Assembly (NCBI GenBank): GCA_045837725.1
Contig: JBEWZL010000202.1
Coordinates: 248,001 to 312,000 of the forward strand
DNA from: Vermamoeba vermiformis
Taxonomy: Eukaryota
DNA length: 64,000 nt
Reading direction: 5' to 3'
The notes below the pieces were generated by a model. The model was not told where the DNA came from. It made no database searches and saw nothing but the letters and a program-made list of their open reading frames with translations. The position numbers and the translations under genes are program-made. Of the stretch, positions 14,768 through 64,000 are shown one piece after another. How positions within the stretch are numbered: position 1 is the stretch's first letter; each line of letters opens with the position of its first letter.

Positions 14768-15547
14768 AATAAATATAGCCGCGTGGTCTCCGCTTGAATG
14801 TAAAAAATAAAAGCAGCGGCGCAAGGTTAGCGAGATTTCTAGCGGAAGTTGCGAGTTCCACACAACAAACTGCCGCGTGGGAAAAATTTCGTTTTTGCGA
14901 CGATCAAAGACACAAAATAGTGGTGAAAGTGATAAATTATATTTCGTAAAAGTTTACGATGGCACGGATACAAAAATATCGGGCCCGAGAACGAACGCAA
15001 ATCCAAATCCAAATTCGCAACGGAATAAGAGGAGTTCCGCGGTATGACATGACAGATAAGATACGCATTAAATAATATTAATATGTGACGTGCATATCAT
15101 TGATATTATTTTATGATAGTAATTTGCTGCTTTACTGCTCGTAATAATTTTCATCCGTATCAAAAAACTCGTAGTATTTTATTCGCGATAAATTCCGAAC
15201 TAATTTATTCAAGAACATTTTGGTATATTCGGCGTATACTAATTTGAATGTCTTACCTGAATTTTGATGCTGGGTGCACATCCGGCTCGAGCCACAACGA
15301 ATTTTTATCCAAGCGAAACAAACATGTTCGGTACTCTAGCATTAATATTGCACGAGCTGTTACGCTTAATAAATAACAATACTGCATTAGCTCACGTGTT
15401 CCGTGGGTTCTACTAAAATTATCAAAAAATATCAAGACGTAACGGTTAAAACCTGTTGCACCGCTCAAATTAGCCATTAATTCTAATGACCCGATAGTAA
15501 TAAGCCACATATACTCCCATACATTAATACGAACTTAATAATCAACA

Positions 15548-17324
15548 ATGGAAGACAACAAAGCGAACGTAACAGCAGATTCCAAGGAGACCGAAAAGAA
15601 GGTTCTAGCGCTTGGCGATCGCATGAAGACATACGAAGCTACTACAGTACAACTGCTAGACCCGAAATTGCCGTTTATTATCAGATTGGATGATGAGTAC
15701 TAAATTAAATATTTATAGAATCCAAGACTTAAGTCTTTCTTTGTCATTTACTACAGCACAAATAGCTTCTAAATAAGGTTGCACCGAATTTTTCTGTATT
15801 TTTTTCAATTAATTGATTCATTTTTTTGACGTTGCTAAATCTGGGTTGTAGGTCACAAGTTTAGTACCTTTACTCGTGTATTCAGAAAGCCTTTCGATGA
15901 CAGAAGTAAGTGATCCGTTGCTTTTCGTGAGATCAATCACAACTGTGTTTTCGAATCTCGGATGCGAGCTACATCCGGCGAGTGATTCAAAACACAAATA
16001 TGTCTATTTCACTTACTAATGCCGTATAGTTACCAACGCCATGACCGAGACTGCAAAGCAATTGTTGCTAGAGTTCAATCCTGCCACTGTGTACACCTGC
16101 AGTGACGAGATCACGCTCATCTACCCCGTTGAGCCGTGGGACCCTAACGCACCAGTCGAAGAAAAAGACAAAGATGCGAAAGAGAAAGAGAAGGTCTTGT
16201 TTTTCAACGGCAAGATTCAAAAGATTGCTTCTCTCACTTCTGCGTACGCATCTGTCTGCTTCGATCGTGCTTTGAACAGCCAAAAATGGGATCCTGTTGC
16301 CGATGAGAAGGTAAGTATACTTATATTATTTTTATCCATAACGATTATGCACTTGTTGCTCCGTTGGCGAGATCGAGTTAAATACTTAAATTCTAGTTAA
16401 CTCCTTTTCTCTTGCTTACAATTTCTTGATTACTCGTGCAAATAATTATAAATACATATATACGTCTATTTATGGACATAATTTCGGCGAGCACGATTTT
16501 ATATCGAAAATTTACTTACCTCAAACTTCGTACAGATCATCAACTTGTTGGCGACTAAGAAGCCGTACTTTGACTCCCGAGTATTCAACGTACCTAGCAA
16601 CATTGAGTTGGTGGTAAGTACATTAAAGAGTGTATTATATCGACTAGTGTAAGCTCATTGTTACCGTACCAGAACAACTTGATCTGGCGCAGTCACTACG
16701 ATTTCAGACGCAACTCGATCTCCATCTACAGCAGACAATTCTTCTCTGACAAAGAAATGCACGGTGTTAGCTCTGCAGATTTGTTGAAGAAGATCGTCGA
16801 GGGTGGTCATCCTAAGTGGGAAGATCTGCCGGGCCACTACAAGTTTGGTATCTTTGTTAAGGTAAGTTATTGCTATAAATTTTATCTACTCGACACCTTA
16901 GTGGTGTTACTGATTTTTAAATTAATCTGGGGCTTTAAATAAGAGTATCGAGATCTTTTATGAGCACGTACTGGATCTCCATTGATCTTAAGTTTTAATG
17001 CCTAATTGTTTAGAATAATAACAGTTCTCAAAATAATCTATATACGCGTAGCGATAAGGTGGATTTACCATTTGAGCCTATTTCTGTACTAGCATGAATT
17101 CGGATCGGCAATTTGATCTAATTATTAATTTATTATAGAGAGAGAAGTACAACAAGGAGGTTGAAATTCCCGATCCCAAGGACAAGACCAAGACGAAGAC
17201 AGTGACTGCTACTCGAACTACTGAGCACGTGTCGAGCTTCGAGATTGAGAAGTACACCGAGGACTACGAGAAGTTTGTCATTGCGAAGTACGTGAACGAC
17301 ACTTTTGTATTCAAAAAGGAATAA
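15548..17324 (+). CDS. Thg1-like protein (TLP; 3'-5' RNA polymerase, tRNAHis guanylyltransferase family)
   Basis: LGDRMKTYE, IIRLD(G)HKFSTFT...KPFD, YTCSDEITL, FNGKIQKIAS, YFDSRVFNVP, NNLIWR. The first intron has a non-canonical donor. Confidence 0.92.
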
Positions 17325-31570: not shown

Positions 31571-34500
31571 ATGTCATCGACGCAAACAGCAATTACTATT
31601 GCAGCTTCCACGTCGATAGCAACAGCGCTGCTGATCTACCTGCTACTTCGTCCAAAGAGGAATGATGTCATCGGACCGGAATCAGATCTAAGAAGGTCTG
31701 ACGATGGAAGAAAAATTCAAGAGGATTCACTTAATCGGCGGAGAGCAGCTGTGCTAGGTATAAAATTATTTTTTCAGATTAGATTTCGAATCTGCTTCGA
31801 ACTAAACGCGCCTTATTCGCACAATATTTTGAAATTTATTGCACACGAAATATTATAGCATTTATTCTGCGTTTTAATTATTATTCTTTCATTTTGAATT
31901 TTTGCGGGCGCTGACGTTGCTTCAAATTTACATAAATAATAATTCATTTAATAGCAAAACCTCTTCCTGAATTGGAACACAAGAGAGCTGAAGAATCTGA
32001 TGACCAAGAGGAAAATATTTATGCGGATGTACCTCGCGATCACAAAAAAGAAGCAGGCCACGCGACTGACAATACAAGTGGCGCTGCAAAATATTCTTCG
32101 AAAAATTTAAGGGTAATTATTCGCTTAGCACAGCTTTTATCGCACTAACCGAAAATATTGCGGATCTTTTTTGAAAACTCCGCGAGCTGCTTTTAATAAC
32201 AATATAATATTTAGTATTATCAACAATCCTATGATACCGATGGAATTGTATTTAAAGAACCCGTGATCCCGAAGAATATTTATCGAGGCTATTCGTCTCA
32301 TTTCCCTGACAGGTAAGTCTTTATTATTTAATTCGGATAAATTCAATTCAATTTGCGCGACCTTCCTTACGTAAACAACATTACTATTTTAAGCGATTTT
32401 CGGAAAGAATATCATTTTAATTGAAAATTTCTTATTTTCGGACCGATTGTAAATTCTCATCGAAATTCTAATACTATTAAACTTATATATAACCATATTG
32501 CTTACGTTATTTTTGCATTTGCAGTACGAGCGATCAAGCAGTATTTCCTAATAATGAAGTCAATGTCAAACGACTCGGCGATTGGAACAAAAGATTTCAA
32601 AGCTGCATCAAAAAATTGAACACATTTACGCTATTAACACCGCTGCAAGAACGATTGGCCGTGAATTTAGATCTCATGCACTTGGCACAAGATTTTATTT
32701 ACGCTGCGACTACCTACGGAAAGATCATTATTTCCGAGTATTATTTGCCGCGTGCCAAGAAAACTATTAAACCTTGTTCAGAGCTCCCCGGCGTAAGTCT
32801 AAAAATAGTACTATTAATTGTATATATATTAACCTATTGTAGCTCATGGGCGGTCAAAAGTTCATCGTGCACAACATTTTGTTCAAGTTTGCAGTCGATT
32901 ACAACGGCTTATTTGGCAATGATTACGCGGCAGCAAAAGCAGCTGGAAATGAACTACGAGGATTGATCAGTTATTTTAACACGGGCATTTCTGACCTCAA
33001 CGTGCCTTTGATGGCCCTGGTCGATTACCGCGGCTTCCGGTTGATTGCTATGTCAATTTTACCCGTGGGAGAAGAGACTATTATCTACGGCAGCTGGTAT
33101 GTTATCATTCATATCGATATAGGCCATATACTTATTATGTAATATAGTGACGCTGGTCGAAACATTCATGCCAACAATGAAGAGTTCAACGAGTTGATGA
33201 AATTAGCAGCCAAAAAATTGAACTTAAAACCGCACAGATGTCGCGTGGCATTGCGTAAGAACAAGCCGAAGACACGAATGGACTCGAGGACACATATCAG
33301 AGGAGCTTCGTCTGACTCACGACACGGCTCTGGAGATTTCCGATTCGGTTCATCTCCCGCGCGAGATACAAGCTCTAATACCTCGCCGTTGCCAAGCCCA
33401 AAGGGAAATTACACTAATGCTAATGGCTCGGAAAAATATAACGACAATGCATTGACGAGCAGTCAAAGTTCATCTGACGCAGATGTCTACGAGACACCAA
33501 TGTTGGCTCGCAGTTACTCTTCTGAAGACGAGTTTGACGAGGGCACGGATTTTTTGTACTCGCCTGCTGATTTGGAAGGGCACAAAGGCCGCGTAAGTCA
33601 CGTGCTCGAAATTACTTTGCGTAACTCTAACACTGACCAATGACAGGACGGCAAATTCTACTTGTTGGACTTCAGTCGTGTGTTGCCTCCCGAGACTCCT
33701 AATCCTCAGTAAGTCATTGAAAAATATTCTTATTTCACCGTGAGTGGATGCTGATCCGTTTTCACATCAGTTTCAAGAACAGTCATCTTTCAAGGTTGCT
33801 TCGTCCCGAATTTGTACAAACTTACCCGAAGCCACTTTGTCCCGATGCTTTTAGCGGTTTCATGAAAGGTATGAAGGTCAAACTTTTTTCAACCATTTTT
33901 TTAACTTTTTTATTTGCAGAGGATGGTGAGGAAAATCTTCACAATTCAGAGCTGAAAGAAGCCACCAATCACTTGATCAATGTGCTTGTGCCTAAATTTG
34001 CTAAAGCAGACTTGGTCAAGTTGATGGCCGATGCACGTGAACAAGGCCGTTTGACGGAGTTCAGATTGACCGAGACTATTCACAGCGTTGGTATTAACTG
34101 CAGATACATCGGCTTGTTGCGAAAGAACACCGAAGACCCTGAGTTCAAGCGCATAATGTTGATTGAAATGTTGGCACGTGTCATCAAGAACAATTTGCGC
34201 TTCAAACTACGCGAGAAAATGAAAATTTTGCGATTGCCTCTGGAAGAGCCCTACAGGTACATTATTATTACCCATAACATATCCCATATTAATTTTTTAT
34301 ATAGACGATTGGTTATCGACTATTTCAACCTTGTCTTTGGTAACACGAAAAATTCTGACAGCTACTGGGACGACTTTTTGAAGAAAGATTTGTTGATCAA
34401 TTTTCCGGCGTCCCTTCACACCGCAGAAGCTACAAAAGATCATCACTTAAAGCCACGTGTCACTGAGCTTAAAGTCAGCACTGTCGTCGATCAAAAGTTC

Positions 34501-45793: not shown

Positions 45794-46485
45794 TAATGTT
45801 AGCGAATATTTTTTGAACGATTATATAAGAATGAAAAATCGGTCGCAACAAAATTAACATAGTACTACTTTGAGTACAAAGTCAGTATTGCAAGAAGATC
45901 ACGTATGAAGGATCGAAATGCCTCCTATATTTCCGTCACTCATACTGTATTGAATATCGAAGGAACACTTGGTGCTATTTCGTGGATTTCGATTTATATT
46001 CACGCGGAAAAACTAAAAATGGTAAGAACTCGATGACAGTAATGGATTTGGATACGATTCTTAATTTAAGGGAAATTTCAATAACGGAATTATTATCCAA
46101 ATACATGCACAATGCCGGTACGTTTCTTGAAAAGTTTGAGACCTCATTTTGAGATTGACAGTCGTTCGCTCTTGCCTACCAAACACTTACCATGTTTACG
46201 CTTAAGAAAGAGTTGTTTAATTCTTTAGAAATATGTGCCTTCGCCGCTCGTTGACTTTCGATTGACTTAATTGCCAGCTCCGGGAGGCACCAGAACGCTG
46301 CTACCCCGCTTCATAGGGATAAATGTTAGGGGCAATGAAAACATGTGCGGAATAACGCGCAGAAAAAGTATATTCCTCGGTATCAGCCATGAATAGACTC
46401 GTCACGTGAAATCACACATAAATAACGAAGCAATTTCAATTCAAAACATCATCTTCAACCTACTCAACACAACACTACATACTCA

Positions 46486-47514
46486 ATGCTTACTACTATG
46501 GCTACAAACGATGTCAAGCCCAGTGGCGCAGGTCTGCTGAGGTTCGAAACTCGCGACACCACAATTAAGGCATCCGCCAAGGAACCTGTAGTTCCTCCTG
46601 GTGTACAACTCACTGGAGCGCCGCTCTTATGGAAGCAATCCATTGCTGGCAAAGGCATCGTTGTCGGCGTGATCGACTCTGGTATCGACCGAACGCATCA
46701 CGATCTGCAAGGCCAAGTGGTGATTGCTCGAGATTACGTGAAAGATAATGCCCCGATAAGCAACTGGAATCTCCATGGAACTCATGTGGCTGGAACCATT
46801 GCTGCCAAAGGAAACATCATGGGCGTTGCTCCTGAAGCCAAACTGGCTGACTACCGTGTCCTTGGCTTGGACGGCAGTGGCAATGTCGATGCCATCACAA
46901 TGGCTATTCGTCAAGCTGTCGTCGATGGCTGTCACATCATCAACTTGAGTCTTGGATCTCCTTCTGACTATCCGCCGATGCACCAAGCGATCAAGTACGC
47001 CGTGTCCAAGAACGTATTGGTGGTGGCCGCTGTTGGCAACAGAGGTGACGGCAAACCAACCACCAGAGAAATAGACTTCCCTGGTGCCTATCATGAAGTG
47101 GTTGGTGCTGCTTCAGTCGCGTACGATCAAGCGACTGGCAAGCTGCGTCCTTCTGATTGGTCCGACACCAGCGAAGAAGTCGACGTCTGTTCAGTCGGAG
47201 AAAACGTTCTTTCGTGTGCCCCTGGCGACAGATACGTAGTCATTTCTGGCACGTCCATGGCCTCGCCTCACGTGTCTGGCTTTGCCGCGTTGCTTCTTTG
47301 CAAAGCGAAGATGAGAACTGACTTGTCAATGATCCCCGAAGAAACGCTGTACAACATGGTGAAGACGACTACTGTTGACACTGGAGTACCAGGAATCGAC
47401 GTTGCTACTGGCGCCGGATTCGTCACGTTCTATCCTGCTATGCCAGATCCGTCCACTCTCAAGTCTCAACCCAACCCGCAAACCGTCGCTCAGATGTTGA
47501 ACACGGCGGCGTAA
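46486..47514 (+). CDS. Subtilisin-family (S8) serine protease, intronless, resembling intracellular subtilisins
   Basis: Triad motifs VIDSG, HGTHVAG, GTSMASPHV; INLSLG; AAVGN oxyanion Asn; no signal peptide or I9 prodomain. Confidence 0.95.
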   Translation: MLTTMATNDVKPSGAGLLRFETRDTTIKASAKEPVVPPGVQLTGAPLLWKQSIAGKGIVVGVIDSGIDRTHHDLQGQVVIARDYVKDNAPISNWNLHGTHVAGTIAAKGNIMGVAPEAKLADYRVLGLDGSGNVDAITMAIRQAVVDGCHIINLSLGSPSDYPPMHQAIKYAVSKNVLVVAAVGNRGDGKPTTREIDFPGAYHEVVGAASVAYDQATGKLRPSDWSDTSEEVDVCSVGENVLSCAPGDRYVVISGTSMASPHVSGFAALLLCKAKMRTDLSMIPEETLYNMVKTTTVDTGVPGIDVATGAGFVTFYPAMPDPSTLKSQPNPQTVAQMLNTAA

Positions 47515-47936
47515 AGCGTCGGTGGAGCTGCACGTGCAGAGAGATCTATCTTCTTCCTCACGTCTGCTGAAACAAACATTGATTGTTAATAACGATATTG
47601 TTACTAAAGATAAAAAGCTCTCCAATTACTTTTAAGAACCGAGTAAGTGCTTACCATTTACAAGCCTGAGAGCTATGAATATTAAAAACACCATCAACAA
47701 GTCCTCCTCGGCCTCGAAGGAAGTGTGGTATGTCAGGAGAAGTCGATGGTTGATCGGGTTAAGTGTTTTATTTATTGATCGAGTATGATGCAGCTAAATA
47801 AACGAGAGCTCGCTTATTGCTGGCACCCTCCTTCGAGTTGCTTAACAAAATTTTAGTTAAATAAGGTTTTCGTAATGTTACATCGTTATTGGATCGGCCA
47901 AAATTACTGACAGAAAATATCGCAAGACCAAGCGCT

Positions 47937-50900
47937 CTACCATTGTTGTGGAGGAGGTGCGCCACGTCCAGGCATCATCATCTTCTTAGGACCGCCAGGA
48001 CCGCCCATCATTTTCTTGGGACCACCGGGACCAGGGCCTCCCATCATCTTCTTTGGGCCACCAGGACCAGGGCCTCCCATCTTCTTAGGACCGCCGGGAC
48101 CAGGACCGCCCATCATCTTCTTGGGGCCGCCAGGGGTAGGACCGCCAGGCATGGGTCGCTTGGCTGGGCCACCTTGAGACACCGGGCCGTTGTTGGCAGG
48201 CGCGGGTCTGTTAGCGCGATCGCTGCCGTAGGTGTCGGCGTAGTTGGTCTGAGACACGACTGGCTTCTCGGGCTCGCGAAGGTTGGGATAGGCATCGCGA
48301 CCAAGACCAGGGCCGACGAGGATCTTCTTGCTCTTGTAGATACCTCCTTCGGGTGCCTTGGGGCTGGGAGTCCAGATGTACTTGACCTTCTTGCCCTTGA
48401 GACCAGTCACCATCATTCTATTAACGTTTGATTAGCTATCAGTCCAAAAACCAAGTGGATCAAGATCTACTTACTGATCGGAGAACTGAACGTTCAAGTT
48501 GGCGTTGAACTTCAACAAGACAGACAAGACTTCAGTCTTCTTGCGGACCTCGAAGAGCTCGTCAGTTTCAGTGGGGCTAGGAGGCACAGTGATCATCATC
48601 CAGTTGTCAGACAAAGTCGACAATGTGACGGACTGGACTTGAGTGGGCTCAATACGACGAACAGCGTTCCAAATGAAGGGCTTGGTCTTCTTAGTGTTCT
48701 TGTCCTTGTTAGCTTGCGCTTCAATAAACCAGATGTACTGTTGCGAAATGACAAGCACTCGTCGAACTTTCTTGGCCTTGTCGAGACCGTAGCACGTGTC
48801 AGCAAAGTGGACCTTGACGTCTTTGCCGACAATAGACTTGAGACCAAAGTTCTCGCGGTAGTTGATGTAGTCAGTGTTGAACGGTCTATCGAGCGACAAT
48901 CGTCTTCTGTCCTTGCGACCGCGCAACTTGTCGTTGACGTTCTTCTTGAGCGTGTAGAAGTAGTAGTCCATCGCGTACTTCAAGAAGAAGCGTTGGATTC
49001 TGTTAGCGTACGTGTACGTCTTGCGCTCACGAAGCTCTTCCAAGCTGAAGACGGTCTCAGGGGCACGCACGAAGATCTTGGTGTTGCCGGGCGAGTAAGG
49101 CTTAGTGCTCGCGTCCAACTGAAGTGACTCGAGAATGGCCAGCGCACCTTCCTTGTAACGGCCAGACCAAGCATCTGGGGGCCAAGTCTTGTCGCAGCAA
49201 ATAGCGTAGCGGAAGAAGAACTTGTCGTAGAACTGACGGAAGGCGTAACCAGCACGACGAACCTTGACGTTCTCCAACAGACCCAAGTACTTGACTTGAT
49301 GCTCCACACGCGTGGTGTCGAAGTCGTTGGCGGCCTTGCGATCGTTAGGCTTGATGCAACGAATGTAGTGCGGGTGGCAGCGAGACAAAGCGTCGACAAG
49401 TTCACCGATCGACTGCTTGATCTTGAAGCCGGCAGTGGTGGGCTTGCGCTTGTCGTCAGCGGTCTTGGACTCGGGGAACAAAATAGGGATCAACCAGCTG
49501 TTGGTGGATTGCGACAAGTTGATCAAGTCGTTGTAGAGCGTGTCCTTGTTCTTGTCAGTCATGCCGTCAGTGTTGTACTCGACATCACCGGCATAGTGCT
49601 TGATGATGAAGCAGCCAGAGCGTTGAGCCATGCCAAAGTGAGCGTGTTGCGAGTGGTACTCTTGCAACTTGCCCAAAAACTTCTCGTCCGTGCCCTTAGG
49701 GAAGTTGCACGTGTCGTCCAAAAGCGTCAACACACCAATAGGATCTTTCTTGGACTCGATCAAGTCGCAGCAAATCTTGTTGTTGAAGAACTTGATGGGC
49801 TCCCATTGAATGTTCTCGCGCTTGTACTCTTCTTGCTCTTCTTTCAACGTCAAGTTGATGAAAATTTGTTGCAATTTTTCATTGACGTAGTTAATGCACA
49901 GCTGTTCGAAACCGTTTTTCTATATTAAGAAAGTCATATTAGTACTCGTAACTAATGTTTTGTATCGTGCTTGAGACTCACCTCGAAGATCTCGAATCCG
50001 TAAATGTCGAGAATACCAATCATGATGTAGCTAGGGTCGTCAATGAAGCCCAAGACTTGATTGACACGTTGCACAATGTAGTCGAACAAACGGGAGTAAA
50101 TAGCCTTCGCAAGGGCGTCACGGGAGTAAGTAGCGCCAGCAGCGTCTTGAGGCACTGAATAGACAGATCCACGGCCAGCAGTACCAGTCGAAATAGTTCT
50201 GCAAATGCATTAATATCGAGTAGCCGGCGGGTACATCTCATTCATGAAAAAACGAAATCGATATGTGAGGTAGATTACCTGGTGCAAATGGCGGTAGTGA
50301 CCGATTGCGCATCCGTTTGGAACAAGTACGCGAACATGTCCACGACGCCAGGGTCCGCGATTTGAGCCTCGTCTTTCGCGTTTTGAGTGAAAGTGACGTT
50401 GCCGAGCCACAGAATGCAAGACAACAAACGGAAAATTTCGTACTTTTCTTCCGCTGAGAAGCCCATAGTATCCATGGCTTGCTGTTAATTATAATAATAT
50501 CCATTAGTATACTGCACTCATGGCATATTTAATCGATAGTGAGCTCGTTAATCGAGAAAAAAAGTTCGCGGCATCTAGATTTGTTTTTCCGTACCTCAAC
50601 TTCTCTGAATTCTTCGGTGTCGTTCATGCCATCGACAGTGTAGCAAGCACCTTGGTTGAGGTAGTTATAGTAGCTAGCGTCTTGGAGTCTGAAATCGTCT
50701 GTTGAAAAGATCCAGTTAACCTCGGGTTCAGATGCGATCAGAAAACGACTTTAAATCGACTTACTCTTGTATTGGCTGTTAGAACTAGCAAGCAATTGGT
50801 AGAAGATGTGGAAACAGCGTTCGTTAGGGGTCTGGTAAACGACTCTAGACTTCTCCAACAAATCTGAAGTAGATGCGGTCAAGGATCAACAAAAAAACAA

Positions 50901-56605: not shown

Positions 56606-59600
56606 TTAGTTCTTCTTCGCACTGAAGCCAAACTTGATGCCACCGCTGGTCTTAGCTCCGCCAGAGACCTTAGCATCACCGCTGGTCTTGACACCAACGG
56701 ACACCAAGCTTGGCCTTCTTGGAAGAAGAGCTGGAGCTTGAAGACGAGCTAGAGGAGCTCGATGAGGACGATGATGACGAAGAGTCAGAGCGCTTGATCT
56801 TGACGTCGCCGCCGGTCTTAACTCCCAAACCGACGTTAGCAGAACCACCAGTCTTGACTTGAGCATCGCCACCGGTCTTAACTCCCAAACCGACGTTAGC
56901 AGAACCGCCAGTCTTAACGCTGCTGTCTGCCTTGACATCAGCACCAGTGTGGACCTTGGCGTCAGTGTCGGCCTTGACCTTGACATCACCACCAGTCTTG
57001 ATTCCAAAACCACCGTTAGCGTGGCCGTCTCCGTGAACCTTAGCGTCGGTATCAGCCTTGACCTTGACATCACCACCAGTCTTCATTCCAAAGCCAGCGT
57101 TGGCATTGCCGTCTCCGTGGATCTTGGCATCGCCTCCGGTCTTAACTCCCAAACCAATGTTGGCGTTGTTGTCGGCCTTGACCTTGACATCACCGCCAGT
57201 CTTCACGCCGAAGCCAAGCTTGGCCTTCTTGGAAGCAGAGGAAGAGCTAGAAGAGGAGGATGAAGAGGAGTCAGAGCGCTTGATCTTGATGTCGCCACCA
57301 GTCTTAACACCCAAACCAATCTTGGCATCGCCATCGGTCTTGACCTTGACGTCACCACCAGTCTTGATTCCAAAGCCAGCGTTAGCGTCTCCGTGGATTT
57401 TAGCGTCGGTATCAGCCTTGACCTTGATGTCACCACCTGTCTTGATTCCAAAACCAGCGTTGGCGTTGCCGTCTCCGTGGATCTTGGCGTCGCCTCCGGT
57501 CTTAACTCCCAAGCCAACATTGGCGTTGCTGTCGGCCTTGACCTTGACGTCGCCGCCAGTCTTCACGCCAAAGCCAAGCTTGGCCTTCTTGGAAGCAGAG
57601 GAAGAGCTAGAGCTTGAAGAAGAGGATGAAGAAGAGTCAGAGCGCTTGATCTTGATGTCGCCACCAGTCTTGACGCCCAAACCAATGTTAGCATCGCCGT
57701 CGGTCTTGACCTTGACGTCACCACCAGTCTTGATTCCAAAGCCAGCGTTAGCGTGGCCGTCTCCGTGGATCTTGGCATCGCCTCCAGTCTTAACTCCCAA
57801 ACCAACATTGGCGTCGGTGTTCACCTTCATTCCAACATTGGCGTCTCCGTGAAGCTTGGCATCTCCGTGGATCTTGGCGTCTCCGTGGACCTTGGCATCA
57901 GCGTGCATGCCTGTGCCGACTTTAACATCAGCATCAGTCTTGGCCTTCACGTCACCACCAGTCTTTACTCCGAGACCAACTCCAAATCCGGCCTTAGCCT
58001 TGCCAGAGTGGCTGGAGGATGAAGATGAGGACGAGGACGAGGAGGAGGATGAAGAGCGATCGTGAGTCTTGACACCAACGCTAAGTCCAGCCTTGGCTTC
58101 AGGGACCTTAACGTCAGAACCAGCCTTGACGTTAACATCGCCACCGGTCTTAACACCAAATCCAGCGTTGGCATCAGTATCGGCCTTGACCTTCACGTCA
58201 CCACCAGTCTTTACTCCGAGACCAACTCCAAAACCAGCCTTAGCCTTGCCAGAGTGGCTGGAGGATGAAGACGAGGACGAAGACGAAGAGGAGGATGAAG
58301 ACGAAGAAGAGGAAGATGAGCGATCACGACCCATGCCAGCGCCAACCTTGACATCAGCGTCGGCTTTAATGTTGGTGTTTGAACCAGCACCAATCTTGAG
58401 ATCGCCGTCGACCTTGACACCTCCGTCGGCCTTGATGTCAGCACTAGCACCAGCCTTCAATTTCTTGGAGGACTTTTTCTTCTGGTGAGGAAGTCTCCAC
58501 TTTCTCTTCTTCTTGGTCTTGAGCTCGCCATCGCCGCGAGGAGAGACATTGGCATCGACATTAACTTCACCGTCGGCCTTGATTTCAGCAGAACTGCTAG
58601 CCTTCAATTTCTTGGAGGACTTAGATTTTTGGTGAGGAAGTCTCCACTTTCTCTTCTTCTTGGTCTTGAGTTCACCGTCGCCGCGAGGAGTAGTGATTGA
58701 AGCATCGGCATCGACATTAGCTTCACCATCGGCCTTGATTTCAGCGGAGCCGCTAGCCTTCAACTTCTTTGAGGATTTCTTCTTCTGGTGAGGAAGTCTC
58801 CACTTTTTCTTCTTCTTGTCTTTAACTTCAGCGTCCACTTTAACCTTGACATCAGTGTCTGCGCGAGGAGTAGTAACAGAAGCACTGCCACCAACGTTTG
58901 CCTTCGGGGTGCCAACAGACACATCAGCACCGACGCTGAGCTTAGCCTTATCACCATTAGAGGAGGATGAAGACGAGGAAGATGAAGACGAAGAAGAGGA
59001 GGAGGAGGATGAAGAAGAGCGAGAGTGACCAACCTTGGGACCCTTGACTTTAAGATCAGCATCACCATCGACCTTGATCTTAGCATCGCCGCCCAAGCCG
59101 ACCTTGACATCAGCGTCACCCTTGATCTTGAGATCAGCGTCACCCTTAGGGGTTCGCGGAGTAGTGACCTTCATGTCGCCATCAGCCTTGACCTTTACAT
59201 CGGCGTCAGCTTTGATCTTGATGTCGCCTTCAGCCTTCGGTTTCTTGCCGCCAATCTTGGGGAACTTGAACTTCTTCTTGTCTTTGCCTTCACCAGACGA
59301 GGATGAAGAAGACGAAGACGATGATGATGAGTCATCGAGACCGCCACCAATCTTGGGACCTTTGACTTTGACATCGCCACCAGCCTTGACCTTGGCATCG
59401 CCACCAAGACCAACCTTGATATCAGCATCGCCTTTAATCTTAGCATCGCTATCGGCCTTGATCTTGAGATCAGCGTCACCCTTAGGGGTTCGTGGAGTAG
59501 TGACCTTCATGTCGCCATCAGCCTTGACTTTAACATCAGCGTCAGCTTTGATCTTGACGTCGCCTTCGGCCTTGGGTTTCTTGCCACCGATCTTGGGGAA

Positions 59601-62600
59601 CTTGAACTTCTTCTTGTCCTTGCCTTCGCCAGAAGAAGACGATGAGGAAGACGAAGATGATGATGATGAGGAGTCTTCGAGACCACCACCAATCTTGGGA
59701 CCTTTGACCTTGACATCACCACCAGCCTTGACCTTGGCATCGCCATCAGCTTTGACCTTGGCATCGCCACCGAGACCGACCTTGATATCAGCATCGCCTT
59801 TAATCTTAGCATCGCTATCGGCCTTGATCTTGAGATCAGCGTCACCCTTAGGGGTTCGTGGAGTAGTGACCTTCATGTCGCCATCAGCCTTGACCTTTAC
59901 ATCGGCGTCAGCTTTGATCTTGACGTCGCCTTCAGCTTTGGGTTTCTTGCCACCAATCTTGGGCAACTTGAACTTCTTCTTGTCTTTGCCTTCGCCAGAC
60001 GAGGATGAAGAGGACGAAGATGATGATGAGTCATCGAGACCACCACCAATCTTGGGACCCTTGACCTTGACGTCTCCTCCAACTTTGATCTTGGCATCAC
60101 TGTCAGCCTTGATCTTGGCATCACCATCGGCCTTGACCTTGAGATCGACGTCACCTCGAGGAGAGGAGACCTTAACGTCAGCACCAGCTTTGATGTTGGC
60201 GTTGCTATCGGCTTTGACCTTGACATCAGTGTCGGCTTTGAGCTTTACGTCACCTTCAGCCTTTGGCTTCTTGCCACCGATCTTGGGGAACTTGAACTTC
60301 TTCTTGTCCTTGCCTTCGCCAGAAGAGGACGACGAAGAGGACGAAGATGAAGACGAGGAGGAGTCGAGACCACCACCAATCTTGGGACCTTTGACTTTGA
60401 CATCGCCACCAGCCTTGACTTTGGCGTCACCACCGAGACCGACTTTAACGTCAGCTTTAGGCTCGTTAACCTTGATGCCGGCATCGGCCTTAATCTTGAC
60501 ATCAGAATCGGCTTTGACCTTGGCATCGCCACCAAGACCAACTTTGACGTCGGCCTTGGGCTCGTGCACCTTGGCATCAGCATCCGCCTTGATCTTGGCA
60601 TCACTGTCAGCTTTGATCTTGACGTCGCCTTCAGCCTTGGGCTTCTTGCCACCAATCTTGGGGAACTTGAACTTCTTCTTGTCTTTGCCTTCGCCAGAAG
60701 AAGACGATGAAGAGGATGAAGATGAAGACGAGGAGGAGTCTTCGAGACCACCACCAATCTTGGGGCCCTTGACTTTGACGTCTCCTCCAACTTTGATCTT
60801 GGCATCGCCATCAGCTTTGACCTTGGCATCGCCACCGAGACCGACCTTGATATCAGCCTTGGGTTCGTGAACCTTGACGTCAGCATCAGCCTTGACCTTG
60901 ACATCACCACCAAGGCCAACCTTGACATCAGCCTTAGGCTCATGGACCTTAACGTCAGCATCAGCTTTGGCTTTAACATCGGCATCGGCTTTGATCTTGA
61001 CGTCGCCTTCGGCCTTGGGTTTCTTGCCGCCAATCTTGGGGAACTTGAACTTCTTCTTGTCCTTGCCTTCGCCAGACGAGGATGAAGAAGACGATGATGA
61101 TGAGGAGTCATCGAGACCGCCACCAATCTTGGGACCTTTGACTTTGACATCGCCACCAGCCTTGACCTTTGCATCGCCACCAAGACCAACTTTAACATCA
61201 GCCTTGGGCTCTTTGACTTTCACATCAGCATCGGCTTTGATCTTGACATCACCGTCGGCTTTAACCTTGACATCGGCATCGGTCTTGACTTTTACGTCAC
61301 CACCAAGACCAACCTTGACGTCGGCCTTGGATTCCTTGACTTTAAGGTCAGCATCGGCCTTGATCTTAGCATCGCCATCGGCCTTGACTTTAATATCAGC
61401 GTCAGCTTTGATCTTGACGTCGCCTTCAGCCTTGGGCTTCTTGCCACCGATCTTGGGGAACTTGAACTTCTTCTTGTCCTTGCCTTCGCCAGAAGAGGAT
61501 GAAGAGGATGAAGAGGAGGATGAAGAGTCGTCGAGACCACCACCAATCTTGGGACCCTTGACTTTGACATCGCCACCAGCCTTGACTTTGGCATCGCCAC
61601 CGAGACCGACTTTAACGTCAGCTTTAGGCTCGTGAACCTTGACACCAGCATCGGCTTTGATCTTGACATCGCCATCAGCCTTGACCTTGGCATCGCCACC
61701 AAGACCAACTTTGACGTCAGCCTTGGGCTCGTGCACCTTGCCATCAGCATCAGCTTTGACCTTGGCATCACCACCAAGACCAACCTTGACATCAGTCTTG
61801 GGTTCCTTGACCTTGATATCACCATCTGCTTTGATCTTGGCGTCACCTTCAGCCTTCGGTTTCTTGCCGCCAATCTTGGGGAGTTTAAACTTCTTCTTGT
61901 CTTTGCCTTCGCCAGACGAGGATGAAGAAGACGATGATGATGAGGAGTCATCGAGGCCACCACCAATCTTGGGACCCTTGACTTTGACATCGCCACCAGC
62001 CTTGACTTTGGCATCGCCACCGAGACCGACCTTGATATCAGCCTTGGGCTCGTGAACCTTGACGTCAGTGTCAGCCTTGACCTTGGCGTCGCCACCCAAG
62101 CCAACCTTGACATCAGCCTTGGGCTCTTTGACTTTCACATCAGCATCGGCCTTGACCTTGGCATCACCACCGAGACCGATCTTAGCATCTCCGCTAGCCT
62201 TGACATTAGTGTCACCACCAGCCTTGATCTTGGCATCACCACTGAGGCCAACCTTGACGTCAGCTTTGGGTTCTTTGATTTTCAAGTCAGCATCGGCCTT
62301 GATCTTAGCATCGCCATCGGCCTTGACTTTAACATCAGCGTCAGCTTTGATCTTGACGTCGCCTTCAGCCTTGGGTTTCTTGCCACCAATCTTGGGAAGC
62401 TTGAACTTCTTCTTGTCTTTGTCTCCACTCGAAGAAGACGATGAAGAGGATGAAGATGATGACGAATCATCGAGGCCGCCACCAATCTTGGGACCCTTAA
62501 CTTTGATATCGCCACCAGCCTTGACTTTGGCATCGCCACCGAGCCCAACTTTAACATCAGCCTTGGGTTCGTGAACCTTGACATCAGCATCGGCCTTGAC

Positions 62601-64000
62601 CTTGACGTCGGCGTCGGTCTTGATCTTGGCATCGCCACCAAGACCAACTTTGACGTCAGCTTTGGGCTCTTTGACTTTCACATCAGCATCGGCCTTGACC
62701 TTGGCATCACCACCGAGACCAACCTTGATGTCGGCCTTGGGTTCCTTGACCTTGACGTCGGCATCAGTCTTGACCTTGATGTCAGCATCGGCCTTGACTT
62801 TAACGTCAGCGTCGGCTTTGATCTTGACTTCGCCTTCAGCTTTGGGTTTCTTGCCACCAATCTTGGGAAGCTTGAACTTCTTCTTATCTTTGTCTCCACT
62901 CGAAGAAGACGATGAGGACGAAGATGATGATGAGGAGTCGTCGAGACCACCAATCTTGGGACCCTTGACTTTGAGGCTGCCATCTCCCTTGATCTTGGCA
63001 TCGCCACCCAAACCAACCTTGACGTCAGCTTTGGGTTCTTTGACTTTCACATCAGCATCGGCCTTGACCTTGGCATCGCCACCGAGACCAACCCTGATGT
63101 CGGCCTTGGGTTCCTTGACCTTGATGTCGGCGTCGGCCTTGACTTTTACGTCAGCGTCAGCTTTGACCTTAGCGTCGCCACCCAAGCCAACTTTAATGTC
63201 AGCTTTAGGTTCCTTGACCTTGACGTCGGCATCGGCCTTGACCTTGGCATCACCACCCAAACCAACCTTGACGTCAGCCTTGGGTTCGTGAACCTTGACG
63301 TCAGCATCGGCCTTGACTTTGGCATCGCCGCCTAAGCCAACCTTGATGTCGCCACCGGCCTTGATCTTGGCGTCGCCACCCAAGCCAACCTTGACGTCGG
63401 CTTTGGGCTCTTTGACTTTCACATCAGCGTCAGCCTTGACCTTAGCATCGCCACCCAAGCCAACCTTGACGTCTGCTTTGGGCTCTTTGACTTTCACGTC
63501 GCCACCAAGACCAACCTTAACGTCAGCCTTGGGCTCTTTGACCTTGACGTCGGCATCGGCCTTGACCTTGGCATCGCCGCCTAAGCCAACCTTGATGTCG
63601 CCACCGGCCTTGATCTTGGCATCGCCTGAAGCTTTGGCTTTCTTGTCTTTGTCGCTTGATGAAGACGATGAGGAAGAGGATGAGGAAGATGATGAAGACG
63701 AAGAGTCCGAACGATCACGACCACCTCCAAGACCAACTTTTACTTTAGGGGCCTTTACTTTGACGTCAGCGTCAGCTTTGACCTTGGCATCACCACCGAG
63801 ACCGACCTTGACATCGGCTTTAGGCTCGTGAACCTTGACGTCAGCATCGGCCTTGACTTTGGCATCGCCACCGAGACCAACCTTGATGTCGCCGCCAGTC
63901 TTGATCTTGGCATCGCCACCAAGACCGACCTTAATGTCAGCCTTGGGCTCGTGAACCTTGACGTCAGCATCGGCCTTGACCTTGGCATCACCACCCAAAC
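56606..64000 (-). CDS. Giant low-complexity AHNAK-like repeat protein with poly-Ser tracts (5'-truncated, >2440 aa)
   Basis: Uninterrupted ORF of about 7.3 kb with synonymous variation between repeats; units KVKADADVKVxEPKADVKVGLGGDA, 10x Sn-G(E/D)-(G)KDKKKFK(F/L)PKIGGKKPK, 3x KWRLPHQK. The natural-looking end lies in a shifted frame (stop at 56606). Confidence 0.9.
56620..64000. repeat. Degenerate coding tandem-repeat array (hierarchical 6-aa, ~25-aa and ~110-170-aa units)
   Basis: Recurring + strand words such as ccttgaccttggcatc, gccaccaatcttggg and aacttgaacttcttcttgtc throughout. Confidence 0.95.

What the first reader, a model, noticed from the sequence alone, without database searches (positions are those of the whole stretch)
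15683..15860. Catalytic motif of the Thg1-like polymerase depends on a non-canonical AT-AG intron
Seen: exon 1 ends ...AGA TTG GAT G (15692) and exon 2 begins GT CAC AAG (15852), which together give RLDGHKFSTFT. The intron therefore starts ATGAGT (15693), a GTGAGT donor with A at +1, and ends TTGTAG. The nearby GT at 15697 gives a frameshift and stop, and the donor is not U12-type (no ATATCC). Established: the RxDG Asp is a metal ligand in Thg1/TLP enzymes. Possible explanations: a genuine non-canonical donor limiting expression, donor rescue by A-to-I editing, a null allele, or an assembly error. Two apparent frameshifts elsewhere in the window keep error plausible.
Basis: partly seen in the sequence, partly recalled or inferred. 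Interest (0 to 1): 0.7.

Follow-up and report, generated by a model that had tools for sequence, protein, structure and literature searches.

The report
Broken splice donor in amoeba TLP gene
In this amoeba genome the first intron of a reverse-polymerase (Thg1-like) gene begins with AT where four related lineages have a G first, and the only RNA from an identical strain is spliced at a wrong site nearby, so this is most likely an ordinary splice-site mutation that cripples the gene.

Summary
A six-exon Thg1-like (TLP) gene lies at 15548-17324 (+). Only a junction 15692|15852 rebuilds the conserved RLDGHKF motif, and that intron starts ATGAGT and ends TAG. The other four introns start GTAAGT.

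The intron position is old. RNA reads of a 5-10% divergent strain join exactly there (46 and 42 reads). Genomic read-through ORFs of 4 of 4 relatives read RLD-G-K, so they have G at +1. The A is therefore derived.

It is probably real. The read-through ORF ending RLDDEY* is also on a separate 1,186-nt NCBI-sourced contig. Independent contigs match the window with no differences over about 1.6 kb.

The only RNA identical to the window (run X8, one contig, depth 6.5) skips the AT donor. It uses a weak GT donor at 15778, keeps at least 38 nt of intron sequence, and has a TAA in the TLP frame just before the junction.

Best reading: a lineage-specific G-to-A donor mutation with cryptic-donor splicing, giving a null or strongly reduced allele. 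Accurate AT-AG splicing at a low level is not excluded. Editing rescue is unlikely, and the intron is not U12-type. The DNA base in raw reads was not checked. Ordinary; low interest.

The parts
15548..15692 (+). Exon 1 of the TLP gene (ATG to the first base of the Gly codon of RLDG)
   Evidence: All 48 residues are identical to the start of the transcript-derived protein P0011.
15693..15698 (+). Non-canonical donor ATGAGT (A at +1, G at +3)
   Evidence: In 4 of 4 relatives the genomic read-through ORFs read Gly-Lys here, so +1 is G and +3/+4 are AA (P0013, P0014, P0015, P0016).
15693..15851 (+). Intron 1 as defined by homology (159 nt, AT..AG), phase 1 in the Gly codon
   Evidence: The junction position is confirmed in RNA of a divergent strain (46 reads in X22, 42 in X24). 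The acceptor position is the same in the 83% relative L001.
15701..15703 (+). TAA that ends the exon-1 frame if the intron start is retained (51-aa product ending RLDDEY)
   Evidence: The identical 51-aa ORF is P0012, on an NCBI-sourced 1,186-nt contig.
15740..15777 (+). Intron-1 segment present in the spliced RNA contig of run X8. It holds a TAA at 15774-15776 in the TLP frame.
   Evidence: table 8 record 9.
15778..15783 (+). Cryptic donor AAG|GTTGCA, joined to 15852 in the X8 RNA contig (skips 74 nt, GT..AG)
   Evidence: table 5: 1 contig, depth 6.5, 36 letters on the shorter side. Sequence context.
15833..15851 (+). 3' end of intron 1: a CTAAA branch-like motif about 13 nt before TTGTAG
   Evidence: read by eye. 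Introns 2 and 5 of the same gene have CTAAT at a similar distance from the acceptor.
15852..15905 (+). Exon 2 (GHKFSTFTRVFRKPFDDR)
15906..16029 (+). Intron 2, GTAAGT..AG, 124 nt
   Evidence: Junction 15905|16030: 33 reads in X22, 31 in X24, and the X8 contig.
16030..16310 (+). Exon 3, which carries the SDE carboxylates
   Evidence: Pfam Thg1, E 2.9e-8. Alignment to 4kgk.
16311..16535 (+). Intron 3, GTAAGT..AG, 225 nt
   Evidence: Junction reads: 78 in X22, 73 in X24, and the X8 contig.
16536..16613 (+). Exon 4
16614..16672 (+). Intron 4, GTAAGT..AG, 59 nt
   Evidence: Junction reads: 43 in X22, 50 in X24, and the X8 contig.
16673..16861 (+). Exon 5
16862..17138 (+). Intron 5, GTAAGT..AG, 277 nt
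   Evidence: X8 contig joint, and 35 (X22) and 26 (X24) reads with a few divergent letters at the joint.
17139..17324 (+). Exon 6 with stop TAA

Best explanation
The gene encodes a Thg1-like 3'-5' RNA polymerase (TLP) of an amoeba that is Vermamoeba vermiformis or very close to it. Its first intron sits at a conserved position, between the metal-binding Asp and the Gly of RLDG. It is an ordinary U2-type intron that started GTAAG in the ancestor. In the lineage of this window the first intron base has changed from G to A (inferred from four relatives).

A U2-type intron with A at +1 and G at its last base is poorly suited to exon ligation, which relies on a G-G contact between the first and last intron bases. 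That rests on the literature and was not tested here.

The mature RNA seen from an identical strain is instead made from a weak cryptic GT donor 85 nt downstream (shown by one RNA contig). That RNA keeps intron sequence. If transcription starts at the normal place, the reading frame ends after 51 residues (RLDDEY*). A TAA also lies in the TLP frame directly before the new junction.

Full-length TLP is therefore not made from that RNA. The allele is null or strongly hypomorphic (inferred). The rest of the gene is still intact, so the change is recent, or one of several alleles, or tolerated.
For: 1. Only the AT-AG junction restores the conserved protein.

2. The junction position is genuine. 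RNA of a strain only 90-99% alike reads Leu-Asp-Gly-His-Lys across it, with 46 reads in X22 and 42 in X24. These counts are comparable with the other four junctions, which have 26-78 reads.

3. In 4 of 4 relatives with genomic read-through ORFs, the residue after RLD is Gly and then Lys, which requires G at +1 (P0013, P0014, P0015, P0016). The A is therefore derived.

4. The A is seen twice. The exact 51-aa ORF ending RLDDEY is on an NCBI-sourced contig of 1,186 nt, a different record from the window's contig of at least 64 kb.

5. Local assembly accuracy is high. All 4 X8 contigs laid (815 nt) show 0 differences. 4 of the 8 listed X4 pieces (810 nt) also show 0 differences.

6. X8 record 9 is identical to the window and is spliced at introns 1 and 2, so it is RNA. 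It joins 15777 to 15852 (GT..AG). It is the only X8 contig that reaches the 5' edge of exon 2. No X8 contig shows 15692|15852.

7. The cryptic isoform has stops at 15701-03 and 15774-76.

8. The G-G contact between first and last intron bases, and its A-C equivalent in AT-AC introns, is described in PMC11585973 (passages). Cryptic 5' splice-site activation after donor mutations is described in PMC6280755 (passages).
Against: - No raw DNA reads of the window's own sample were laid, so the base at 15693 rests on assembled records only.
- The near-identical metagenome run X4 covers 15693 with one contig. Its two differing letters in 15533-15743 were not displayed, and X4 has one A>G change somewhere. 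X4 may carry G.
- The cryptic junction rests on a single short contig (204 nt, depth 6.5) from one run. X8 has no contig over exon 1, so a minor correctly spliced form could have been lost as a low-coverage branch.
- The X8 contig stops at 15740. It could come from transcripts that start inside the intron, rather than from exon 1 reading on into the intron.
- The gene shows no other damage. Compared with three relatives it has only one lineage-specific amino-acid change (Thr to Ser). That fits a gene still in use as well as it fits a recent loss.
- Whether the second record (P0012) is independent of the window's sample is unknown.
Confidence: 0.58

Rival explanations
1. A working U2-type AT-AG intron. 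The A at +1 is real, and the spliceosome still removes 15693-15851 accurately in a useful share of transcripts. Full-length TLP is then made at reduced level, and the cryptic form is a by-product.
For: - Positions +2 to +6 (TGAGT) and -1 (G) still fit the donor consensus.
- The rest of the gene is intact, with one lineage-specific conservative change.
- Human U2-like AT-AG junctions without signs of editing are reported (PMC4176328, passages).
- AT ranks third among non-canonical donors in reporter assays and RNA-seq (PMC6280755, abstract).
- X8 coverage is too low to exclude a minor form.
Against: - No read or contig from a strain identical to the window shows 15692|15852 (0 of 4 X8 contigs).
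- No full-length protein identical to the window's model is among the 9 members of its 90% cluster, or among the 3 hits of the exon-3 search.
- The search for short proteins over residues 20-140 returned 15 hits. I read 9 of them, and none spans the junction with the window's residues. The other 6, at 37-50% identity (87% for P0018), were not read.
- The contig through the exon-2 edge follows the cryptic donor, although that form should be the less stable one.
- A first-base A with a last-base G disrupts the contact used for exon ligation (PMC11585973).
Confidence: 0.2
2. Base-call or assembly error. The true base at 15693 is G, the donor is GTGAGT, and nothing is unusual.
For: - The +1 base was not checked in raw DNA reads.
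- The runs of the possible source sample are small (23-211 million letters).
- X4 has one undisplayed A>G change.
Against: - The same read-through ORF with Asp (GAT) is on a second record.
- Independent contigs show 0 mismatches over about 1.6 kb of this locus.
- An identical-sequence RNA run avoids this donor and uses a weak cryptic one. That is expected for A at +1 and unexpected for GTGAGT.
Confidence: 0.1
3. Rescue by A-to-I editing. The +1 A is deaminated to inosine in the pre-mRNA, the spliceosome reads it as G, and splicing is then normal.
For: Three human AT-AG junctions show A>G mismatches consistent with editing (PMC4176328, passages).
Against: - No inverted repeat covers the donor; 0 of the 11 pairs found in 15300-16300 includes 15693.
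- The 221-nt stretch around the intron folds less well than its shuffles (z +2.1; 199 of 200 shuffles fold at least as well). There is no duplex substrate.
- The identical-strain RNA uses another donor.
- From memory, not from a call: ADAR enzymes are an animal family.
Confidence: 0.02
4. The cryptic form is a regular alternative transcript, from a start inside intron 1 or as regulated unproductive splicing. It would exist in all lineages and be unrelated to the +1 A.
For: - The X8 contig ends at 15740 and X8 has no coverage of exon 1.
- In another lineage with a G donor, a 1,246-nt transcript contig yields only an ORF that starts at the Met in exon 3 (P0007). That hints at 5'-disrupted transcripts there too.
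Against: - In X22 and X24, 0 reads show the 15777|15852 joint, against 46 and 42 for the normal one. This is weakened because intron sequence of that strain may be too divergent to be laid.
- The segment carries no ATG, and a TAA closes the TLP frame.
Confidence: 0.1

Closest known systems
Donor-site +1 G>A mutations with cryptic 5' splice-site activation (as catalogued for human disease genes)
   Same: A canonical donor at a conserved intron position is changed at +1. Mature RNA is made from a weaker GT nearby, and the result is a premature stop (PMC6280755 passages).
   Different: This is a natural variant in a free-living amoeba lineage. It affects the first intron, so exon skipping is not an option. 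The evidence is one RNA contig, not an assay.
Recently derived U2-like AT-AG intron of primate ACTR10 (Parada et al. 2014, PMC4176328)
   Same: An AT-AG intron whose relatives have GT at the same position, so AT is derived (passages).
   Different: The ACTR10 junction is supported by transcripts of the species that carry AT. Here, accurate use of the AT donor is not seen.
U12-type AT-AG introns (Sheth et al. 2006, PMC1557818)
   Same: The terminal dinucleotides are AT and AG (Table 2 of that paper).
   Different: The donor ATGAGTAC does not fit the ATATC motif given for minor-spliceosome donors (PMC6280755). Relatives have GTAAG. The intron's other signals look like those of its U2-type neighbours.
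Bacterial-type Thg1-like proteins, e.g. Bacillus thuringiensis TLP (PDB 4kgk)
   Same: Best solved-structure match (E 1e-21 over residues 21-257 of P0011). R28, D30, H33, F34 and the SDE carboxylates align (PMC3701042).
   Different: A eukaryotic nuclear gene with five introns and a Lys/Glu/Asp-rich insert after the SDE motif. Substrate and cell compartment are unknown.

Membership tests
Thg1/TLP 3'-5' polymerase superfamily (Pfam PF04446) | Thg1 catalytic domain | tested here: met
   Window exons 2 and 3 hit PF04446 (E 0.012 and 2.9e-8). The near-identical full-length P0011 hits it at E 3.1e-27 over profile positions 2-130.
Thg1/TLP 3'-5' polymerase superfamily (Pfam PF04446) | Three conserved carboxylates (BtTLP D30, D75, E76) | tested here: met
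   RLD aligns with R28-I-D30, and SDE with the D75/E76 position, in the 4kgk alignment. Residue roles are from PMC3701042. In the window the Asp is in exon 1 and the SDE in exon 3.
TLP branch rather than bona fide Thg1 | Closer to TLPs than to eukaryotic Thg1 | tested here: met
   4kgk (TLP) E 1e-21, against 5xox (tRNA-His guanylyltransferase) E 3.9e-5. No tree was built.
TLP branch rather than bona fide Thg1 | Template-dependent 3'-5' addition activity | not testable with these tools
   Needs an enzyme assay.
U12-type (minor spliceosome) AT-AG intron | Extended donor motif (ATATC at +1) | tested here: not met
   The donor is ATGAGTAC. The motif is as given in PMC6280755.
U12-type (minor spliceosome) AT-AG intron | U12 branch-site motif close to the acceptor | tested here: inconclusive
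   TGCTAAAT lies about 13 nt before the AG. It resembles the CTAAT seen in the GT-AG introns 2 and 5 of the same gene. The U12 consensus used for comparison is recalled, not taken from a call.
U2-type GT-AG intron carrying a +1 substitution | The same intron position has G at +1 in relatives | tested here: met
   4 of 4 genomic read-through ORFs read RLD-Gly-Lys.
U2-type GT-AG intron carrying a +1 substitution | Loss of normal junction and use of another donor in carriers | tested here: inconclusive
   One X8 contig uses 15778, and 0 of 4 X8 contigs show 15692|15852. Coverage is low, and the DNA of X8's strain was not seen at 15693.
A-to-I edited AT-AG intron | Double-stranded RNA around the edited A | tested here: not met
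   No inverted repeat covers 15693, and there is no stable fold.
A-to-I edited AT-AG intron | A>G mismatches at +1 in unspliced RNA of the same strain | not tested
   No RNA reads over 15693 from an identical strain were available. Intron depth in X22 and X24 was 0.

The most novel reading that the evidence does not exclude
The A at +1 is fixed in this Vermamoeba lineage. The intron is a functional U2-type AT-AG intron, removed accurately without editing often enough to keep an otherwise fully intact, strongly conserved TLP gene in service. That would be a natural case of the major spliceosome tolerating an A-G pair of terminal intron bases.
Probability: 0.15. Interest if true: 0.55.

Novelty: new member of a known kind. 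Interest (0 to 1): 0.27.

Why it matters
If the main reading holds, this is a natural knock-down or knock-out of one 3'-5' RNA polymerase in a Vermamoeba strain. In Dictyostelium, depletion of each Thg1/TLP gene causes a growth defect (PMC5041481, abstract). A strain that tolerates the loss could help find what this TLP does.

For annotators it is a practical warning. Gene finders that require GT or GC donors will truncate or mis-model this gene.

Beyond that it is an ordinary splice-site variant.

Tried and rejected
- Canonical alternatives for intron 1. All 26 in-frame GT/GC-AG combinations delete the motif.
- U12-type intron. The donor motif does not fit.
- Editing rescue. There is no duplex at the donor.
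- Genomic DNA of relatives covering the donor. The metagenome scan gave 1 locus, L001 (83% relative). It starts inside intron 1, so only the acceptor position could be compared. Genome contigs gave 0 relatives and 0 pattern matches. Viral contigs gave 0.
- The whole genome is not held. No genome-wide survey of AT-AG introns and no search for TLP paralogues was possible.
- Rfam found nothing in the window at gathering threshold.
- Earlier notes of this scan: nothing for this genome or sequence. Two word hits concerned Ostreococcus introns and were not relevant.
- A search for short proteins spanning the junction in the window's own lineage listed 15 hits. I read 9 of them; none spans the junction with the window's residues, and the other 6 were not read.
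A Pfam pass over 101 of the 134 ORFs of at least 90 aa showed ordinary split eukaryotic genes.

Full report
**What is in the sequence**

The stretch 15548-17324 (+) holds a six-exon gene:

| Exon | Coordinates |
|---|---|
| 1 | 15548-15692 |
| 2 | 15852-15905 |
| 3 | 16030-16310 |
| 4 | 16536-16613 |
| 5 | 16673-16861 |
| 6 | 17139-17324 |

Introns 2 to 5 all begin GTAAGT and end AG. They are 124, 225, 59 and 277 nt long.

With these borders the frame is open for 310 codons. It is identical at 301 of 310 positions to the transcript-derived protein P0011, at 296 of 310 to P0009 and at 298 of 308 to P0001.

I tested every GT or GC donor between 15560 and 15850 against every AG acceptor up to 15900. 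There are 26 in-frame, stop-free combinations, and none keeps RLDGHKFS.

**What the gene is**

- Pfam Thg1 (PF04446) matches exons 2 and 3. It matches the near-identical full-length relatives at E 3e-27 to 5e-28.
- The best solved structure is the Bacillus thuringiensis Thg1-like protein 4kgk (E 1e-21). True tRNA-His guanylyltransferase (5xox) scores only 3.9e-5, so the gene is of the TLP type.
- In that alignment the R and D of RLDG fall on R28 and D30 of BtTLP, and the H-K-F on H33/F34.
- The structure paper states that D30 and D75 coordinate the two magnesium ions (PMC3701042, passages).
- The intron therefore does sit one base after the codon of a metal ligand.

One member of the same 90% protein cluster carries the EukProt label Vermamoeba vermiformis (P0009). 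The next relative found is a Physarum transcript at 45% identity. The window thus comes from Vermamoeba or something very close to it.

The surrounding ORFs are ordinary eukaryotic genes. They include an ankyrin protein, a DEAD-box helicase, a TPR protein, a kinase, CLU, a P450, a subtilase and a myosin I.

**The intron position is old and its donor was GT**

RNA reads of two runs with the same species label as the possible source sample (X22, X24) are only 90-99% like the window, so they come from a divergent strain. They join exon 1 to exon 2 at the predicted place. There are 46 and 42 reads, reading Leu-Asp-Gly-His-Lys with a synonymous GAC for Asp. This is on a par with the other four junctions, which have 26-78 reads.

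A metagenome contig of an 83% relative (L001) has the same acceptor position and phase, but begins inside the intron.

The protein collection holds short ORFs called on genomic contigs that run from the start codon into the intron. In four relatives they end RLD-G-K (P0013, P0014, P0015, P0016). Gly needs G as the first intron base, and Lys needs AA at +3/+4. The ancestral donor was therefore G-N-A-A-R, most simply GTAAG.

The window's own ORF ends RLD-D-E-Y-stop (GAT GAG TAC TAA). Its donor differs from the relatives at +1 (A for G) and at +3 (G for A).

Of the 37 codons changed at the 40 displayed positions between the window and the X22/X24 strain, 29 are synonymous (46 further positions were not displayed). 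The gene is therefore under purifying selection in the group.

**Is the A real?**

I could not look at raw DNA reads of the window's sample. Reads were laid on two RNA runs, one metagenome run and one run of unknown kind. Three things speak for a real base:

1. The exact 51-aa read-through ORF is on record from an NCBI-sourced contig of 1,186 nt (P0012). That cannot be the same record as the window. Whether it is an independent isolate is unknown.
2. The window agrees without a single difference with all four contigs of X8 (815 nt) and with four of the eight listed pieces of the metagenome run X4 (810 nt). Local error is therefore low.
3. RNA of an identical strain behaves as if the donor were dead (next section).

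One point against: X4 covers 15693 with one contig that has two differing letters somewhere in 15533-15743. Those rows were not displayed, and X4 has one A>G change in all. X4 may carry G.

**What the RNA of an identical strain shows**

Run X8 has another organism label and is of unknown kind. It gives four contigs with no difference from the window. Two of them are spliced at introns 2, 3 and 4, so this is RNA.

The contig that reaches the 5' edge of exon 2 (record 9, 204 nt, depth 6.5) does not come from exon 1. It joins 15777 to 15852, a GT..AG skip of 74 nt from the donor AAG|GTTGCA, and continues upstream through intron sequence to 15740. None of the four X8 contigs shows 15692|15852, and none covers exon 1.

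In that RNA a TAA (15774-15776) lies in the TLP frame directly before the junction. If the transcript starts at the normal place, the frame from the ATG ends at 15701-15703 after 51 residues. The next in-frame Met is in exon 3, behind the RLDG motif.

Full-length enzyme cannot come from this form.

**Mechanism proposed**

In U2-type introns the first and last bases (G and G) pair in a non-Watson-Crick manner for exon ligation. AT-AC introns keep that contact as A-C (PMC11585973, passages). An A-G combination does not.

From memory (Parker and Siliciano 1993 and related work, seen here only as citations), +1 G-to-A mutants still allow the first step and stall before the second.

Weakened donors commonly shift splicing to cryptic GT sites (PMC6280755, passages). 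The picture in X8 fits this. I therefore read the locus as a lineage-specific donor mutation that makes the allele null or strongly hypomorphic.

| Step | Status |
|---|---|
| The sequence | shown |
| Conserved intron position | shown |
| G at +1 in four relatives | shown |
| Cryptic junction (one contig) | shown |
| Stops in the cryptic form | shown |
| The A causes the shift | inferred |
| Transcripts start at exon 1 | inferred |
| No useful amount of correct mRNA is made | inferred |

**Rivals**

- **A working AT-AG intron** remains possible, at about one in five. The rest of the donor is good. The gene has no other lesion and only one lineage-specific conservative change. U2-like AT-AG junctions without editing exist in human (PMC4176328), and AT is the third most used non-canonical donor (PMC6280755 abstract). 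No call gave direct support, though.
- **An assembly error**, at about one in ten, is weakened by the second record and by the X8 behaviour.
- **Editing** is unlikely. No inverted repeat includes the donor (0 of 11 pairs), and the region folds worse than its shuffles.
- **A regular alternative transcript starting inside the intron** cannot be excluded. The X8 contig ends at 15740. A 5'-disrupted transcript ORF (P0007) also exists in a lineage with a G donor.
- **U12-type splicing** is rejected on the donor motif.

**Verdict**

This is a splice-donor variant of a known kind in a conserved TLP gene. It is of modest interest unless accurate AT-AG splicing is shown in the carrier strain.

Noticed in passing
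window 56679-63998 (-): A single open frame of at least 2,440 codons runs off the window's end, in a region of about 50% G+C against about 38% elsewhere. Only low-complexity Pfam matches were found (Cornifin-like, SR-25-like).
   Followed up: no
window 46426-49919: A subtilase ORF (+, 362 aa, E 1e-49) and a myosin-I ORF (-, 482 aa, Myosin_head plus TH1) form long uninterrupted frames in a block that is richer in G+C than its surroundings.
   Followed up: no
window 16161-16195 (exon 3): The Lys/Glu/Asp-rich insert after the SDE motif varies in length among lineages. One X4 contig lacks 3 nt at 16175, and the relatives P0001, P0011 and P0018 differ here by one to two residues.
   Followed up: partly
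relatives P0025, P0026, P0021: In more distant TLP homologues called on genomic contigs, RLDGHKF is read without interruption. The Asp|Gly intron therefore seems confined to the Vermamoeba group. An intron after the ...PFDE(R/N) position appears shared.
   Followed up: no
P0007: A 1,246-nt transcript contig of a lineage with a normal G donor yields only an ORF that begins at the Met of exon 3. Transcripts with a disrupted 5' part may therefore occur there too.
   Followed up: no
window 16864-17137 (intron 5): One X4 DNA contig leaves the window's sequence at 16864 and rejoins at 17137. Intron 5 seems largely replaced or deleted in that near-identical strain.
   Followed up: no
window 32493-33640 (+): The CLU (clustered mitochondria) domain is split over three ORFs with gaps of about 50-70 nt. 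These look like short introns, not frameshifts.
   Followed up: partly
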